A stretch of DNA of 9,024 nt from a virus, in UHGV virus genome UHGV-0305646; one strand, written 5' to 3'. A model generated the notes under the pieces. That model did not search any database. It was not told where the DNA came from and saw only the letters and a list, made by a program, of their open reading frames with translations. A program made the position numbers and the translations under genes. Shown here piece after piece: positions 5,425 to 9,024 of this stretch; the stretch's first letter is position 1, and each line of letters begins with the position of its first letter.

Positions 5425-6519
5425 ATGGCGGTTTATGTAGTAACAGGCAAATTAGGCTCAGGCAAGACACTTGTTAGTGTTTCCAGAATACAGGAAAGAC
5501 TTGCTAAGGGTTGTCCTGTTGCCACTAATCTTGATCTTAAATTGCATAATATGCCTATGGTTGGGCGTTATGCGAAAAAAACGCGCGTTATTCGCATTCC
5601 TGACAAGCCTTCATTAAATGATTTACTTGCTATTGGTATTGGGAATACATCTTACGATGAATCCCGTAATGGCCTCCTTGTACTTGATGAATGTGGTACT
5701 TGGTTTAATTCCCGCTCATGGGGTGATAAAGACAGACAACCTGTTATTGACTGGTTTTTACATGCCAGAAAATTAGGCTGGGATATTATATTTTTGATTC
5801 AGGATATTTCGATAATGGATAAGCAAGCTCGTCTGGCGCTTGCTGAGCATGTTGTTTATTGTCGCCGTTCAGATAAATTAAACATTCCTTTTGTTGGCTC
5901 CATTATGAATTTGGTTTCAGGGGCGAGATTTTCTTTACCAAAGGTACACTTTGGCATTGTCAAATATGGTGATAATGTTAATTCAATCACTGTTGATAAA
6001 TGGATATATACAGGAAAATCTCTTTATTCTGCTTACAATACCAAACAAGCGTTCACAGATAATTATCCTCATGGCGCATTTTCGCTTTTGCCACCATTTA
6101 TCACGCACGGTCAATTTTCTGTTCACAGAGGATTTAATTATTATATGCGCCTCACTAAAATTTATTTTCGCAAATCGAACCGTCTTATATTAATGCTTTC
6201 TTTTTTGGCGCTGGGGCTTGCGTTTGGTTTCTGGCTCCAGTCTGGAAAGAATGTTGATGAAATCTCAGCTATTAAATCTGCTTATGCTGAACAGGCGAGG
6301 GCGGTAACGCCTGATTCGTCCAGTGACTTACCCCGACTTTCTATTAATTCTTTTTCACAACTTGGCTTTGACGTTTCCGTTACGTTTGTTGATGCAAAAG
6401 GTATGAAATATCAGTATTTTGATTTGATTAAAGATGGTTATTCCGTTGATATTAAAGATGCCTGTCGTGTTGTTATTAGAAAAGGCCGTTATTTACAGAC
6501 TGTTACCTGTCAGGAGTAA
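5425..6519 (+). CDS. gI: Assembly ATPase, gene I-like (Zot family P-loop NTPase)
   Basis: N-terminus MAVYVVTGKLGSGKTLVSV with Walker A GSGKT; LVLDECGTWFNSRSW and WFLHARKLGWDIIFL closely resemble Ff pI as I recall it; a single TM segment lies near residue 255. Confidence 0.9.
   Translation: MAVYVVTGKLGSGKTLVSVSRIQERLAKGCPVATNLDLKLHNMPMVGRYAKKTRVIRIPDKPSLNDLLAIGIGNTSYDESRNGLLVLDECGTWFNSRSWGDKDRQPVIDWFLHARKLGWDIIFLIQDISIMDKQARLALAEHVVYCRRSDKLNIPFVGSIMNLVSGARFSLPKVHFGIVKYGDNVNSITVDKWIYTGKSLYSAYNTKQAFTDNYPHGAFSLLPPFITHGQFSVHRGFNYYMRLTKIYFRKSNRLILMLSFLALGLAFGFWLQSGKNVDEISAIKSAYAEQARAVTPDSSSDLPRLSINSFSQLGFDVSVTFVDAKGMKYQYFDLIKDGYSVDIKDACRVVIRKGRYLQTVTCQE
6145..6519 (+). CDS. Candidate in-frame internal product of gene I (gene XI analogue)
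   Basis: Internal Met241 (ATG 6145) lies just before the TM segment, the same residue position as the Ff pXI start as I recall it. No convincing SD, so this rests on analogy. Confidence 0.3.
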   Translation: MRLTKIYFRKSNRLILMLSFLALGLAFGFWLQSGKNVDEISAIKSAYAEQARAVTPDSSSDLPRLSINSFSQLGFDVSVTFVDAKGMKYQYFDLIKDGYSVDIKDACRVVIRKGRYLQTVTCQE

Positions 6520-6526
6520 TATTATT

Positions 6527-7792
6527 ATGCGCTCTGTTATTGTTGCTTTTTTATTTGCCTGTTCATTCTGCGTTTCTGCTGAAACTGTTAATTTAAATAA
6601 TTCATCTGTTCGCTCATTTGTTCAGTGGTATTCTTCAAAAACTGGCAAGCCTGTTATTGTTAATCCTGATATTAAAGGAAACGTAACCGTATTTAATGCT
6701 GATGTTAATCCAACAAATATTGATGATTTCTTTAAGTCTGTTCTGAATGCTAACGGTTTTGTCATGCTTTCTGGCAATCCTGCGGTAGTCTCTTTGCCGT
6801 CTAAATTACCTTCACAGATGGTTTCGGATTCCGATGATTCTGATAACCAGTCTTATGATACTTTTCCTTCTGAGCCATCTTACCAGCCAGTACCTGTGGC
6901 GCTTACGGTCAGAAATTTTAAGCTGACAAAAGTTAGATCGTCCGATGTTCAGCAACTGATTAAAATTTATCTTGATTCTAATGGTGGTGGTAATGTCGTG
7001 GATTATCCAGGCAATAACTCGCTGATTGTTTCTGCGCCTGACGAGCTGCTGCCGGTTCTGTCCGATTTTATCAATTCTGTGGATGTTGCCCGCGATCAGG
7101 TTCTCATTCAGTCGCTGATGTTTGAAACCAGCTTGTCTGATGGCGTTGATTTATCGTTTGCGGCAGGTTCTGCATCCGGTCATAAGGTTGCGGGGGGCTT
7201 TAATACTTCTGCACTGGGTAGCGCTCTTTCTACGGCGGGCGGTTCTTTTGGTATTTTTGATGGTAACGTGTTGGCGCTGTCTCTGCGTGCTGTCCAGAGT
7301 AATTCACGCTCTAAGGTGATTTCAACGCCGCGTATTCTTACTCAGTCTGGTCAGACTGGTTACATTTCCGTAGGTAAGAATGTGCCGTTTATCACCGGAA
7401 AGGTAACGGGCGAATCTGCCGGGGTAAATAATCCGTTTCAGACTATCGAGCGTCATGATGTTGGCGTTTCTCTCAAGGTAACGCCTGTTGTCATGGGTAA
7501 CGGGCAACTAGTTCTGACTATCGACACTCGCGCTGATTCAATCAGCAATGATGATCAGGCATCCGATATTATTACTAATCAGCGCCAGATTCAGACGACA
7601 GTCCAGATTAAGGATGGTCAGACGTTGTTATTGGGGGGGCTTATCGATTCATCGTTCAGCAATGCCGAGCGTTCAGTTCCAGTTATAAGTAAAATTCCTC
7701 TTATAGGCTGGATTTTCAGTAGCAAGGCAGACAGCAATGAACAGCGTATTATGTATATTTTGCTTACAGCACATATCATTCGTCCACTTTGA
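6527..7792 (+). CDS. gIV: Outer-membrane secretin, gene IV-like
   Basis: Track ORF 6434-7792; ATG at 6527 begins signal peptide MRSVIVAFLFACSFCVSA. The C-terminal secretin region (GQTLLLGGL...VPVISKIPLIGWIFSS) and many blocks (GGSFGIF, NVPFITGKVTGESA, NNPFQTIER) resemble Ff pIV. Confidence 0.9.
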   Translation: MRSVIVAFLFACSFCVSAETVNLNNSSVRSFVQWYSSKTGKPVIVNPDIKGNVTVFNADVNPTNIDDFFKSVLNANGFVMLSGNPAVVSLPSKLPSQMVSDSDDSDNQSYDTFPSEPSYQPVPVALTVRNFKLTKVRSSDVQQLIKIYLDSNGGGNVVDYPGNNSLIVSAPDELLPVLSDFINSVDVARDQVLIQSLMFETSLSDGVDLSFAAGSASGHKVAGGFNTSALGSALSTAGGSFGIFDGNVLALSLRAVQSNSRSKVISTPRILTQSGQTGYISVGKNVPFITGKVTGESAGVNNPFQTIERHDVGVSLKVTPVVMGNGQLVLTIDTRADSISNDDQASDIITNQRQIQTTVQIKDGQTLLLGGLIDSSFSNAERSVPVISKIPLIGWIFSSKADSNEQRIMYILLTAHIIRPL

Positions 7793-7836
7793 TGGATAGC
7801 GGGTAGGTGCGTGAGCCCTGCTCGCTATCCATCAAA
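7788..7836 (+). terminator. Long hairpin overlapping the gene IV stop: candidate terminator and/or packaging-signal hairpin
   Basis: TTTGATGGATAGCG (7788-7801) pairs perfectly with CGCTATCCATCAAA (7823-7836); the 21-nt loop is partly self-complementary. No T-run follows. In Ff the packaging-signal hairpin sits directly after gene IV. Confidence 0.4.
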
Positions 7837-7861
7837 TGGACATTATTGATTGGGGTAACTA

Positions 7862-8170
7862 ATGGATTCTTATGGGATTTTATCTGCTCTGGCAGAACGA
7901 ACGATTACAGCGGAAGAAGCAAAAACAATGACACTTGCAGCCAGAAGTTCTTCGGCTCAGGTAAATGAAGCATCACTTGCTCTGTTACTGATTGATAATA
8001 CTCTGGATGCGATCAAAGCAGCTGCCAGTGAAGGGAAAGGATACACTTTACTTCCTTCTTATGAGATTTCTGTAAAAGCCATTGATTTAGCAGAAGAATT
8101 TTTAAGGAAACAATGCGGCTATGTTATTGATAACCAGAATGGCGTAAGGACGGTCTATTGGTTTATATGA
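7862..8170 (+). CDS. Hypothetical 102-aa protein
   Basis: Complete ORF with a weak SD; sits between two long hairpins in the gene IV to dif interval. No family recognised. Confidence 0.4.
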   Translation: MDSYGILSALAERTITAEEAKTMTLAARSSSAQVNEASLALLLIDNTLDAIKAAASEGKGYTLLPSYEISVKAIDLAEEFLRKQCGYVIDNQNGVRTVYWFI

Positions 8171-8171
8171 T

Positions 8172-8216
8172 AACCCCGGACAATGACAAAACTTGCTTTT
8201 GTTAGTGTCAGGGGTT
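8172..8216. other. Long imperfect hairpin (20-bp stem, 5-nt loop); candidate ssDNA origin or packaging structure, or a terminator
   Basis: AACCCCGGACAATGACAAAA (8172-8191), loop CTTGC, TTTTGTTAGTGTCAGGGGTT (8197-8216) with 2 mismatches and 1 G-T pair. A T7 run follows at about 8237-8243. Confidence 0.35.
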
Positions 8217-8287
8217 GGCCAAGCCGAACAATTCTGTTTTTTTAGCGTTATTGCTGATTCGGCGCGGCAGCATTACGAGGAGATAAA

Positions 8288-8521
8288 ATGCAATTTTTCA
8301 CATCCAGCGATACTGTAATGTTATGTGCGAAGACCTGCGATCGCTGTGGTCGCCATGCGAAGACGGTGGTAGATGACATTGAGTTCAATGAGTTTCTGTC
8401 TGTTAATCACTTAGCTGGATACGGTTCAATTTTTGGTGACAGTAATCGCTTAAAACTGGATTTATGCCAACATTGCCTGAAAGACGTCCTGGGCCAGTGG
8501 ATTACGGTCTGTGACCAATGA
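8288..8521 (+). CDS. Hypothetical small Cys-rich protein (77 aa, CxxC...CxxC)
   Basis: Complete ORF with a strong SD (GAGGAG at 8277-8282, 5-nt spacing); CDRCG and CQHC motifs. Its last 70 bp plus the downstream sequence are duplicated at 1-123. Confidence 0.6.
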   Translation: MQFFTSSDTVMLCAKTCDRCGRHAKTVVDDIEFNEFLSVNHLAGYGSIFGDSNRLKLDLCQHCLKDVLGQWITVCDQ

Positions 8522-8574
8522 CGGCACCGGTAACGCCAGTTCCCGCCATCCTTACCATTGGTGCGCATAATGTA
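8452..8574. repeat. Right copy of the 123-bp perfect direct repeat (left copy 1-123)
   Basis: See the left copy; identity ends at 8574 inside the dif central region. Confidence 0.9.
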
Positions 8575-8587
8575 TATTATGTTAAAT
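8560..8587. other. dif: Canonical 28-bp chromosomal dif site (XerCD recombination site, attR)
   Basis: GGTGCGCATAA-TGTATA-TTATGTTAAAT matches the enterobacterial dif consensus as I recall it (XerC arm, 6-bp central region, XerD arm). Confidence 0.85.
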
Positions 8588-8730
8588 CACCTACTGTGGT
8601 AAATAAGTTCATATGACACTCCCACTAACTGATAAATCAATACGTTAGGATTTCTGATCTCCCTCTCGTTTCTTGCATTAGGTACAGAGTACATTCTCTT
8701 CATATCCATGATAATTTTGAGGTAAATATT

Positions 8731-9024
8731 GTGTATTCACTAAAGCAGTTGGTTATCTCAGGCCGTAAAAGGCGATGGATCCTGATGGACTTGGAAACCT
8801 CTCTGCCGTTGCTGTATCCCCTTAGGTACCATATTGACCATTTGGCTTTCCGCTCATTGTCCACACAGTCAGCTTCACTTCAATCTGTGAAGTTTTTTTA
8901 CGAATTCTGGAGGCAAAAGTATGGTGTCTCGTTTTGCTACAGCTTCTATTCATCTGACCACAATCCAGACATTGCTGTCGGTGAAATGCCCGCATTTTGG
9001 ATGTATCTAGAAAATGGCCACAAC
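8731..9024 (+). CDS. 5' part of an ORF that runs off the right edge of the window (host side of dif); product unknown
   Basis: GTG at 8731 preceded by GAGG (7-nt spacing); 98 sense codons with no stop to the window end (VYSLKQLVISGRKRRWILMDLETSLPLLYPLRYH...). Absent from the supplied track, presumably because it has no stop. Confidence 0.3.
   Translation, partial: MYSLKQLVISGRKRRWILMDLETSLPLLYPLRYHIDHLAFRSLSTQSASLQSVKFFYEFWRQKYGVSFCYSFYSSDHNPDIAVGEMPAFWMYLENGHN

What the first reader, a model, noticed from the sequence alone, without database searches (positions are those of the whole stretch)
7788..8216. Two long hairpins in the gene IV to dif interval as candidate packaging signal and origin structures
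A 14-bp perfect stem with an extendable imperfect continuation overlaps the gene IV stop (7788-7836), and a 20-bp imperfect stem lies at 8172-8216. Ff phages have the packaging-signal hairpin immediately after gene IV, followed by minus- and plus-strand origin hairpins. These are the most plausible cis elements for packaging and replication, and their separation by an ORF differs from Ff.
Basis: partly seen in the sequence, partly recalled or inferred. Interest (0 to 1): 0.4.

Follow-up and report, generated by a model that had tools for sequence, protein, structure and literature searches.

The report
Phage packaging hairpin plus portable origin-like element
In this CUS-1/YpfΦ-like filamentous prophage at the E. 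coli dif site, the first hairpin is the counterpart of phage IKe's packaging signal, while the second belongs to a conserved two-hairpin DNA cassette shared by otherwise unrelated filamentous phages, most likely the start site for second-strand synthesis.

Summary
Both hairpins are real and far stronger than chance.

**Hairpin 1 (7782-7841, over the gene IV stop).** This is the strongest local fold in the window. It is homologous to the hairpin annotated "morphogenetic signal" in phage IKe.
- It shares a 22-nt apex with IKe and carries the CGGGT..GGTG motif on its ascending limb.
- 12 of its 22 stem pairs show compensatory changes across relatives.
- It is specific to the + strand.
- It co-occurs with an IKe-like pVII C-terminus and an IKe-like assembly module.

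The packaging-signal reading is well supported, and it is ordinary.

**Hairpin 2 (8172-8216).** This is half of a roughly 100-nt element that also contains a second hairpin (stem 8218-8226/8260-8268).
- I found the element in 74 viral and metagenomic contigs.
- It always lies downstream of gene IV and on the gene IV strand.
- It occurs with three different replication-protein types and at least four assembly-module types.
- ORF102 is an insertion between the packaging signal and this element.

Because the element does not track the Rep protein, it is unlikely to be the plus-strand origin. It is most likely a host-primed minus-strand origin. This is inferred, not shown, and the element has no similarity to the Ff/IKe minus origin.

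A better plus-origin candidate, linked to the Rep type, lies outside the interval at 1534-1579.

The parts
7782..7841 (+). Hairpin 1: IKe/Ff-type packaging (morphogenetic) signal. About 27 bp of stem, a bulged T at 7808 and a GTGA loop at 7811-7814. The ascending-limb motif CGGGTAGGTG lies at 7800-7809. The hairpin overlaps the gene IV stop (7790-7792).
   Evidence: Fold. Rank 1 in the window. The 22-nt apex is 91% identical to IKe 6158-6179. The IKe record annotates 6141-6196 as morphogenetic signal. Covariation. The covariance model hits once per locus, at the gene IV stop, with the + strand scoring far above the - strand.
8172..8216 (+). Hairpin 2: first hairpin of the conserved portable element. 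The 20-position stem has a nearly invariant apex, GACAAAAC-TTG(N)-TTTTGT.
   Evidence: Fold. Alignments A4 and A5. 91.9% of cells paired, 4 pairs with double changes and near-fixed G.T wobbles. Strand test.
8218..8268 (+). Hairpin 2b: second hairpin of the element. The conserved stem is GCCAAGCCG/CGGCGCGGC (8218-8226 / 8260-8268), enclosing a variable, T-rich loop of about 33 nt.
   Evidence: RNAalifold and single-sequence folds. L091 carries ACCAGGCCA/TGGCCTGGT, which has two compensatory pairs and turns the two internal mismatches into pairs.
8167..8279 (+). Full extent of the conserved portable element (candidate minus-strand origin), as delimited by blastn against relatives.
   Evidence: 72-86% identity to contigs that share little or nothing else with the window. 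29 viral and 45 metagenomic instances.
6527..7792 (+). Gene IV (secretin, 421 aa). Its last codons form the outer 5' arm of hairpin 1.
   Evidence: Pfam Secretin, Secretin_N and GspD N0. RefSeq annotation of the same gene.
7862..8170 (+). ORF102 (YPO2280a-like cargo ORF). It is an insertion between the packaging signal and the hairpin-2 element.
   Evidence: Absent in L003/L149, L089, L092, L096 and L097, where the element lies about 140 nt after the gene IV stop. No Pfam family above threshold.
8288..8521 (+). ORF77 (YPO2281-like cargo ORF), between the element and the attachment site.
   Evidence: Replaced by unrelated ORFs in relatives.
8560..8587 (+). Canonical E. coli dif (GGTGCGCATAATGTATATTATGTTAAAT) at the right prophage end.
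   Evidence: Sequence. Matches dif of K-12 and more than 1300 E. coli genomes.
107..204 (+). Folded CTXphi-type attP(+) hairpin at the junction of two tandem phage copies. The XerC-side arm GGTGCGCATAA pairs with TTGTGCGAACC.
   Evidence: Fold of -30.7 kcal/mol, z = -7.1. Inverted repeat I1. The review describes inverted XerC/D sites in the YpfPhi ssDNA.
1534..1579 (+). Candidate plus-strand origin, outside the finding. It comprises an invariant hairpin AACGTGCAGTGT-AGGTA-ATACTGCACGTT (1534-1562) and a covarying hairpin at 1564-1579.
   Evidence: Present in every contig with window-type pII where that region is held, including L148 where both flanks differ. Absent from contigs with other Reps.
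3316..3497 (+). Genes VII and IX (tip proteins that bind the packaging signal in Ff). The pVII C-terminus ISFGLGAITAGVFR is nearly identical to that of IKe.
   Evidence: Translations. Role of the pVII/pIX C-termini, PMC10175506.

Best explanation
The window is a CUS-1/YpfPhi-type filamentous prophage, present as a tandem copy at E. coli dif.

Hairpin 1 (7782-7841) is its packaging signal. On the packaged + strand it stays double-stranded while the rest is coated by the ssDNA-binding protein. It is then recognised by the IKe-like pVII/pIX tip proteins at the pI/pIV export machine, so it starts assembly and fixes the orientation of the DNA in the virion. The homology and the structure are shown; the function is inferred from IKe and Ff.

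Hairpin 2 (8172-8216) and the abutting hairpin 2b (8218-8268) form one element of about 100 nt. This element is exchanged as a cassette among dif-integrating enterobacterial filamentous phages, whatever their replication protein or coat and assembly genes. The most likely role is the complementary (minus) strand origin. After infection, the two hairpins on the incoming + strand would be recognised by a host priming enzyme, which lays down the primer that DNA polymerase III extends to make the replicative form. This step is inferred, and the priming enzyme is unresolved.

The plus-strand (Rep-nicked) origin is not in this interval. The best candidate is the Rep-linked hairpin pair at 1534-1579, which matches the ig-1 position of the CTXphi origin.
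For: Hairpin 1:
- Every pIV relative that has downstream DNA carries a strong + strand hairpin starting at the gene IV stop, including IKe, I2-2, If1-like phages and f1.
- The only IKe intergenic match in the window is the 22-nt apex of the IKe hairpin. That hairpin is annotated 'morphogenetic signal' in NC_002014.
- On 10 sequences, 91.4% of cells are paired and 12 of 22 pairs have compensatory changes. 0 of 500 shuffles reach this, and slid controls give 33-46%.
- A T.G wobble is invariant, and G.T versus A.C cells number 27 versus 3.
- The covariance model hits once per locus, at the gene IV stop, with 57-77 bits on + against 17-28 on -. It hits only phages with window/IKe-type assembly genes.
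- The CGGGT..GGTG ascending-limb motif reported for the Ff packaging signal is present at 7800-7809.
- The pVII C-terminus is almost identical to that of IKe.

Element:
- It is conserved at 72-86% in contigs that lack ORF102.
- There are 29 viral and 45 metagenomic instances. In all those that carry a gene IV or Rep match, these lie on the element's strand, with gene IV upstream in a single phage copy.
- It occurs with three Rep types: Phage_CRI pII, If1-like G2P and Rep_trans. It also occurs with different ssDNA-binding proteins and at least four assembly modules.
- L141 shares nothing else with the window at nucleotide level.
- Hairpin 2 is 91.9% paired, with 4 double changes and near-fixed G.T wobbles. 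Hairpin 2b has compensatory changes in L091.
- A separate Rep-linked block at 1534-1579 can account for the plus origin.
Against: - No experiment on this phage supports any of this.
- Hairpin 1 lacks direct proof of packaging function here.
- The element has no detectable similarity to the Ff/IKe minus-origin hairpins B and C, to G4-type origins, or to any record in the GenBank phage set.
- No sigma-70-like -35/-10 arrangement was found, either on the duplex or on the stacked hairpins read by eye.
- CTG, the primase start triplet, is not invariant.
- Covariation in the element is modest because it is mostly sequence-invariant, and part of that invariance was imposed by the search pattern.
- In the contigs where a dif-like site could be located, the element lies about 100-550 nt upstream of it, so a role in the integration module is not excluded.
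- A cargo ORF starts about 20 nt after it in many relatives, so an RNA-level role is not excluded.
Confidence: 0.6

Rival explanations
1. The hairpin-2 element is the plus-strand origin: the phage replication protein binds and nicks it to start rolling-circle synthesis.
For: It is the most conserved non-coding block between gene IV and gene II. It sits where Ff/IKe have their origins, and it is shared by all window-type-pII phages.
Against: - The same element (about 80% identity) occurs with three Rep types that share 27% or less local identity, or belong to another Pfam family.
- The loop of hairpin 2 (CTTGC) lacks the T/AATA nick context seen in IKe.
- The + strand has no Ff-like nick motif in non-coding DNA.
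- A different hairpin pair (1534-1579) tracks the window-type Rep exactly, even when both flanks differ.
Confidence: 0.12
2. The hairpin-2 element acts at the RNA level or as a gene-expression signal. It could be a leader, a stabiliser or a terminator/insulator for the variable cargo genes that flank it, or a small RNA.
For: An ATG of an unrelated cargo ORF begins about 20-25 nt after the conserved CGGCGCGGCAG in most variants. The G.U wobbles are equally allowed in RNA. The element sits between two variable cargo slots.
Against: - There is no sigma-70 promoter or intrinsic terminator consensus in 7600-8700 apart from the dif region.
- There is no U-tract after either stem.
- No Rfam family matches.
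- The downstream ORFs are unrelated, so a shared leader is hard to rationalise.
- Loop and stem sequences are far more invariant than terminators usually are.
Confidence: 0.12
3. The hairpin-2 element is an accessory part of the XerCD/dif integration module. For example, it could hold the ssDNA in a form that favours attP(+) folding, or time second-strand synthesis relative to integration.
For: In the contigs where a dif-like or attP sequence could be located, it lies about 100-550 nt downstream of the element. The element was not seen in the non-integrating IKe, I2-2, If1 or f1.
Against: Relatives L099 and L102 carry the attP hairpin (90% and 83% identical) but not the element. Xenorhabdus and Photorhabdus relatives with dif-like sites also lack it. 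No Xer-like half-sites are visible in it.
Confidence: 0.08
4. Hairpin 1 is only the transcription terminator of the gene I-IV operon, and the packaging signal lies elsewhere.
For: It directly follows the last gene of the assembly operon. The IKe record also labels the homologous hairpin 'potential transcription termination'.
Against: - No T-tract follows the stem, and the terminator scan finds nothing.
- The apex sequence and a T.G wobble are conserved from this phage to IKe while the stem covaries, which goes beyond what terminators need.
- It carries the motif reported for the Ff packaging signal.
- It tracks the assembly module, not the operon layout.
- A dual role is possible and would not contradict the main explanation.
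Confidence: 0.06

Closest known systems
Morphogenetic (packaging) signal of phage IKe (NC_002014, 6141-6196) and hairpin [A] of Ff (f1/M13/fd)
   Same: - Position: it starts at the gene IV stop on the + strand.
- Form: a long imperfect hairpin.
- The 22-nt apex is 91% identical to IKe.
- CGGGT..GGTG lies on the ascending limb.
- It is + strand specific.
- It is linked to IKe-like pVII/pIX.
   Different: The lower stem sequence is entirely different, though it covaries. In this phage the hairpin is followed by a cargo ORF rather than directly by origin hairpins. It lies in an integrating prophage with a CTXphi-like layout. Function is untested here.
Minus-strand origin of Ff/IKe (hairpins [B] and [C], primed by sigma-70 RNA polymerase)
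   Same: Two adjacent hairpins on the + strand, lying next after the packaging signal in relatives without cargo. It does not depend on phage proteins, as expected for a host-primed site.
   Different: There is no sequence similarity and no recognisable -35/-10 mimic. The second hairpin has a large variable loop. It is exchanged as a cassette among phages with different Reps. The priming enzyme is unknown.
CTXphi genome layout (attP(+) folded hairpin, ig-1 origin, rstR, ig-2, rstA)
   Same: A folded attP(+) made of inverted XerC/D sites. A divergent repressor gene sits upstream of the Rep gene, with immunity-region variation. The candidate plus origin lies in the ig-1-equivalent position.
   Different: This phage has its own secretin (gene IV) and an IKe-type packaging signal. 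CTXphi lacks a pIV, and to my knowledge its packaging signal and minus origin are not defined (statement from my own knowledge).
Single-strand initiation signals (ssi) of plasmids and G4/phiX-type complementary-strand origins
   Same: By the proposed function, they would be the same kind of thing: hairpins on SSB-coated ssDNA that recruit host priming enzymes.
   Different: No similarity was found in 72,556 plasmid records, except in what look like phage replicative forms or phage inserts, and none in the GenBank phage set.

Membership tests
Ff/IKe-type packaging (morphogenetic) signal | Lies immediately 3' of gene IV on the packaged (+) strand | tested here: met
   The stem starts at 7782 and the gene IV stop is at 7790-7792. 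The same position holds in all relatives.
Ff/IKe-type packaging (morphogenetic) signal | Long imperfect hairpin (over 20 bp) that is much more stable than chance | tested here: met
   About 27 bp, -24.5 kcal/mol, z = -8.9. Best fold in the window.
Ff/IKe-type packaging (morphogenetic) signal | Sequence homology to an annotated packaging signal | tested here: met
   A 22-nt apex is 91% identical to IKe. IKe 6141-6196 is annotated morphogenetic signal. The covariance model built with IKe and I2-2 scores the window at 71.7 bits.
Ff/IKe-type packaging (morphogenetic) signal | [quoted passage not shown] | tested here: met
   CGGGTAGGTG at 7800-7809. The motif is quoted.
Ff/IKe-type packaging (morphogenetic) signal | Pairing maintained by compensatory change among relatives | tested here: met
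   12 of 22 pairs have double changes, 91.4% of cells are paired, 0 of 500 shuffles reach this, and slid controls give 33-46%.
Ff/IKe-type packaging (morphogenetic) signal | Orientation-dependent, acting on the + strand | tested here: met
   In silico only. G.T versus A.C cells number 27 versus 3. The + strand model score is 72 bits against 23 for the - strand.
Ff/IKe-type packaging (morphogenetic) signal | Co-occurs with cognate pVII/pIX and the assembly module | tested here: met
   The pVII C-terminus is nearly identical to IKe. Model hits occur only in loci with window/IKe-type pIV/pI.
Ff/IKe-type packaging (morphogenetic) signal | Required in cis for efficient encapsidation | not testable with these tools
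   Needs a phagemid packaging assay.
Ff/IKe minus-strand origin (hairpins B and C, RNA-polymerase primed) | Sequence homology to Ff/IKe hairpins B/C | tested here: not met
   No match of IKe 6325-6445 in the window or in element-bearing relatives. No hit of the element in GenBank phages.
Ff/IKe minus-strand origin (hairpins B and C, RNA-polymerase primed) | Two adjacent + strand hairpins downstream of the packaging signal | tested here: met
   Hairpins 8172-8216 and 8218-8268. They lie about 140 nt after the gene IV stop in relatives without ORF102.
Ff/IKe minus-strand origin (hairpins B and C, RNA-polymerase primed) | Promoter-like -35/-10 mimic in the folded DNA | tested here: inconclusive
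   No sigma-70 consensus on the duplex. Reading the stacked arms by eye gave only weak hexamers, with no A at the second position of any -10 candidate.
Ff/IKe minus-strand origin (hairpins B and C, RNA-polymerase primed) | Directs site-specific primer synthesis on SSB-coated ssDNA | not testable with these tools
   Needs in vitro priming or in vivo ssDNA-to-RF conversion assays.
Rep (G2P/Rep_trans)-specific plus-strand origin | Inherited together with one particular Rep protein | tested here: not met
   The element occurs with Phage_CRI pII, If1-like G2P and Rep_trans proteins.
Rep (G2P/Rep_trans)-specific plus-strand origin | Hairpin whose loop carries the nick context (IKe TGTTTAATAGTGG) | tested here: not met
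   The hairpin 2 loop is CTTGC. No + strand match in non-coding DNA. By contrast, 1534-1562 has the loop/closing sequence GTAGGTAATAC.

The most novel reading that the evidence does not exclude
The 8167-8279 element is a previously undescribed type of complementary-strand origin cassette. It would be a host-recognised two-hairpin module that dif-integrating filamentous phages of Enterobacterales swap independently of their replication and assembly genes. It would be primed by a mechanism unlike the sigma-70 promoter mimic of Ff, and it may be tuned to delay second-strand synthesis so that the folded attP(+) on the ssDNA can integrate first.
Probability: 0.4. Interest if true: 0.55.

Novelty: new member of a known kind. 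Interest (0 to 1): 0.4.

Why it matters
CUS-1 and YpfΦ are the filamentous prophages of invasive E. coli K1 and pandemic Yersinia pestis. According to the 2014 review, none of their cis-acting sites apart from the Xer site has been mapped.

Placing the packaging signal by homology gives an immediate handle for building phagemids or marked derivatives. It also predicts which DNA will be mobilised.

The second element is more interesting. It shows that non-coding cis modules, and not only genes, are shuffled among these mosaic phages. It gives a defined 100-nt candidate for how integrative filamentous phages start second-strand synthesis. That step competes with ssDNA integration at dif and is essentially uncharacterised outside Ff.

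Tried and rejected
- **Ff/IKe origins in the window.** I looked for them with blastn-short using the IKe intergenic region. Only the packaging-signal apex matched.
- **Ff-type nick motifs (TTTAATAG and similar).** None occurs on the + strand in non-coding DNA.
- **Rfam, at E up to 1.** Nothing relevant was found.
- **Sigma-70 promoter and intrinsic terminator scans of 7600-8700.** Only chance-level hits at dif.
- **Intergenic region upstream of gene II (1763-1889) as plus origin.** Rejected, because it differs in at least four types among phages with 85-100% identical pII, as an immunity region would.
- **Hairpin inside gene II (1951-2020) as origin.** Not pursued. It lies in well-conserved coding sequence and I could not separate structure from coding constraint.
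- **If1-type two-hairpin block.** I first thought it was Rep-specific. It also occurs with window-type pII and looks like a terminator, so I dropped it as origin evidence.
- **MAFFT alignment of all 16 hairpin-1 homologues.** It was not structure-consistent, and RNAalifold on it recovered only 10 pairs. I used the 10 rows that aligned consistently, plus a covariance model.
- **Papers not held.** Gonzalez 2002 and Russel and Model 1989 were unavailable.
- **First folding script.** It timed out.
Full report
**What the window is.**

The window carries a complete filamentous-phage gene set on the + strand:
- gene II at 1890-2984 (Pfam Phage_CRI plus G2P_X_C)
- gene V at 2996-3313
- genes VII and IX at 3316-3497
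- gene VIII at 3517-3759
- gene III
- gene VI
- gene I at 5425-6519 (Zot)
- gene IV at 6527-7792 (secretin)

These assignments rest.

It ends at a canonical E. coli dif site, 8560-8587. Positions 1-123 repeat 8452-8574 exactly, so the left edge is the end of an upstream tandem copy. 49 complete E. coli genomes carry the 7600-8600 segment nearly intact. RefSeq annotates it as a phage next to hipA. The organisation matches the description of CUS-1 of E. coli K1 and YpfΦ of Yersinia pestis. That description includes the two unknown ORFs next to attR, tandem copies, and inverted XerC/XerD sites in the ssDNA (PMC4266046).

**The observation.**

Both hairpins exist at the stated coordinates and are far beyond chance.
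- Hairpin 1 folds at -24.5 kcal/mol as + strand DNA (z = -8.9).
- Hairpin 2 folds at -15.4 kcal/mol (z = -4.9).
- In each case the + strand folds better than the - strand, because of G.T pairs.
- In a sliding 70-nt scan of both strands, hairpin 1 ranks first and hairpin 2 ranks fourth among distinct sites. Between them come the attP hairpin and a site inside gene II.

**Hairpin 1 is the IKe/Ff-type packaging signal.**

I fetched loci encoding pIV relatives from genomes and viral contigs and folded the DNA around each gene IV stop.

Every relative with downstream sequence has a strong + strand hairpin beginning at the stop codon. This holds for identical phages, for the 93% pIV group, for the 70-76% group that includes IKe and I2-2, for the roughly 50% If1-like group, and for f1 itself.

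From this phage to IKe the apex is conserved (GGGTAGGTGCGnnAGCCCTGC), while the lower stem changes by compensatory substitution. One example is GGATAGCG/CGCTATCC in the window against GGCTGGCG/CGCCAGCC in L090.

On a 10-sequence alignment with a hand-drawn structure:
- 91.4% of cells pair.
- 12 of 22 pairs show changes on both sides.
- No shuffle out of 500 reaches this.
- Slid controls give 33-46% pairing.
- A T.G wobble is invariant.

Cells that pair only on the + strand outnumber those that would pair only on the - strand by 27 to 3.

A covariance model built from this alignment matches exactly once per locus, at the gene IV stop. It scores 57-77 bits on the + strand against 17-28 on the - strand. 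It finds nothing in phages that have other assembly modules.

Several further lines tie the hairpin to IKe and Ff:
- The only part of the IKe intergenic region that matches the window is this apex, 22 nt at 91%.
- The IKe GenBank record annotates the homologous hairpin (6141-6196) as the morphogenetic signal.
- The ascending limb carries CGGGT followed by GGTG (7800-7809). A recent preprint, quoting Russel and Model 1989, gives this as a feature of the Ff signal.
- In Ff the signal is bound by the C-termini of pVII and pIX (PMC10175506). The pVII C-terminus here (ISFGLGAITAGVFR) is almost identical to that of IKe.

No T-tract follows the stem and the terminator scan is negative. A pure terminator role is therefore unlikely, although a dual role cannot be excluded.

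**Hairpin 2 is half of a portable two-hairpin element.**

Blastn of 7846-8600 against the fetched loci showed that the block 8167-8279 is conserved at 72-86% in relatives that lack ORF102. In those relatives it lies only about 140 nt after the gene IV stop. ORF102 is therefore an insertion between the packaging signal and this block.

The block folds into hairpin 2 plus a second hairpin. The stem of the second hairpin (GCCAAGCCG/CGGCGCGGC, 8218-8226/8260-8268) is conserved around a variable loop.

On 18 distinct sequences:
- Hairpin 2 is 91.9% paired.
- Four of its pairs show double changes.
- Its G.T wobbles are nearly fixed.
- Hairpin 2b is invariant except in L091, where two pairs change compensatorily and two internal mismatches become pairs.

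An exact-pattern scan found the element in 29 viral contigs and 45 metagenome stretches.
- All lie in filamentous-phage contexts.
- Wherever a gene IV or Rep match is held, it lies on the same strand as the element.
- Gene IV lies upstream of the element within a phage copy.
- Where a dif-like site is held, it lies about 100-550 nt downstream.

The element does not track any protein module.
- It occurs with window-type pII (85-100% identity) in phages whose pIV is only 26-29% identical and whose coat genes show no similarity.
- It occurs with an If1-like Rep (G2P_X_C with a weak Phage_CRI match; 27% or less local identity to the window pII), alongside an Ff-type gene V protein.
- It occurs with a Rep_trans-family Rep in L141.
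- L141 shares nothing else with the window at nucleotide level.

By contrast, the hairpin pair at 1534-1579 is found in every window-type-pII contig, including L148 where both flanks differ. It is missing from contigs with other Reps. It consists of an invariant stem with the loop context GTAGGTAATAC, followed by a second hairpin that covaries (GTACCA/TGGTAC against GTCTCA/TGAGAC). Its loop recalls the IKe nick region TGTTTAATAGTGG. To my own knowledge it also recalls the Ff and pT181 nick sites. It sits where CTXφ has its origin, again to my own knowledge. That makes it the better plus-origin candidate.

The region just upstream of gene II varies like an immunity region and is not a candidate.

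**Interpretation of the element.**

The element has these properties:
- It is conserved and is in the same orientation as gene IV and the Rep gene in every instance that holds them.
- It favours the + strand.
- It is independent of phage replication and assembly proteins.
- In relatives without ORF102, it lies next after the packaging signal.

These properties fit a site recognised by host enzymes on the incoming single strand, that is, the minus-strand origin. This is an inference.

Against membership in the Ff/IKe minus-origin family:
- There is no sequence similarity.
- I could find no convincing sigma-70 promoter mimic (and by eye).
- The CTG primase start triplet is not invariant.

So it may work like a minus origin without being a member of the known family, and the priming enzyme is open.

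Two alternatives keep some weight.
- An RNA-level or expression role, because unrelated cargo ORFs start about 20 nt downstream.
- A role tied to Xer integration. However, attP-bearing relatives L099 and L102 lack the element and have another conserved block there.

The PLSDB hits are small 8-10 kb records or inserts that look like the same phages. They are not plasmid ssi sites.

**Caveats.**
- The invariance of the hairpin-2 apex and of GTTGGCCAAGCC is partly imposed by the search pattern. The blastn-derived set shows the same conservation, with one divergent member (L091).
- Many contigs are near-identical, so counts of contigs are not counts of independent events.
- The packaging function of the IKe hairpin rests on the GenBank annotation and on papers I could not read directly.

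**Verdict.**
- The packaging-signal interpretation is well supported and unsurprising: a new member of a known kind.
- The origin interpretation is partly right. Hairpin 2 belongs to a conserved cis element that is probably the minus-strand origin, of a type not related by sequence to the Ff one.
- The plus origin is probably elsewhere.
- The modular, Rep-independent spread of this 100-nt element is the one modestly novel point.

Noticed in passing
window 107-204: A 98-nt + strand hairpin (-30.7 kcal/mol, z = -7.1). In it, GGTGCGCATAA pairs imperfectly with TTGTGCGAACC, and TTATGTTGAAA pairs with TTTAGCATAA, around an unpaired centre. It looks like a CTXphi-type folded attP(+), sitting at the junction of two tandem phage copies.
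   Followed up: partly
window 1534-1579: An invariant hairpin, AACGTGCAGTGT-AGGTA-ATACTGCACGTT, followed by a covarying hairpin. The pair is strictly linked to window-type pII, even when both flanks differ, and is absent with other Reps. It is a candidate plus-strand origin. On the - strand it could also terminate the rstR-like gene.
   Followed up: partly
window 1-123 and 8452-8574: An exact 123-nt direct repeat with a period of 8451. The window therefore spans the end of one phage copy, a whole second copy and the chromosomal dif, so the prophage is tandem, as reported for YpfPhi.
   Followed up: yes
window 8731-9024; L143 6089-6272; L153 9536-9719: Right after dif an ORF runs off the window. 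The MB51 genome annotates two site-specific integrases here. A 73%-identical gene sits next to dif after a different filamentous phage as well, which suggests another element that targets or neighbours dif.
   Followed up: no
L135 1711-1774; If1 (L110) 5052-5111; L142 3338-3381; L134 2234-2278; L149 783-813: A second portable two-hairpin block, GGTTCGGGGTTCTGTGACACCCCGAAC TTT ACCGTGGTTTCCCACGGTTTTTT. It is shared by the non-integrating If1 and several integrating phages with either Rep type, and is absent from the window. The second hairpin looks like an intrinsic terminator.
   Followed up: partly
L099 5340-5400; L102 5365-5405; L109 5390-5430; L108 about 5500: attP- or dif-bearing relatives that lack the hairpin-2 element share a different conserved block at the same relative position, ATGCC(N)CAGGGCATGG(G/A)AGGCG. 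It may be an alternative cassette with the same role.
   Followed up: no
window 1763-1889 and relatives: The region between the rstR-like gene and gene II carries repeated GAACTCA motifs. It exists in at least four unrelated versions among phages with 85-100% identical pII, like the CTXphi immunity region.
   Followed up: partly
window 4406-4555: Seven tandem 15-nt units (GGTGGTGAGTCYGGY) encode a Gly/Ser/Glu linker in gene III. pIII is the least conserved protein among otherwise near-identical contigs.
   Followed up: no
L001 3071-4900 (E. coli MB51): In strain MB51 the same prophage has gene II interrupted by an IS1A, so that copy is probably replication-defective.
   Followed up: no
L002, L008, L011, L021: Enterobacterial filamentous-phage sequence appears in assemblies labelled Candidatus Nanosynbacter, SAR11, Actinomadura and Paenibacillus. 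The SAR11 case is an f1-origin vector sequence. These are probably contamination or mis-binning.
   Followed up: no
window 1951-2020: A strong local fold (-17.9 kcal/mol) inside the 5' part of gene II. Its nucleotide sequence is well conserved among pII homologues, and I could not separate structure from coding constraint.
   Followed up: no
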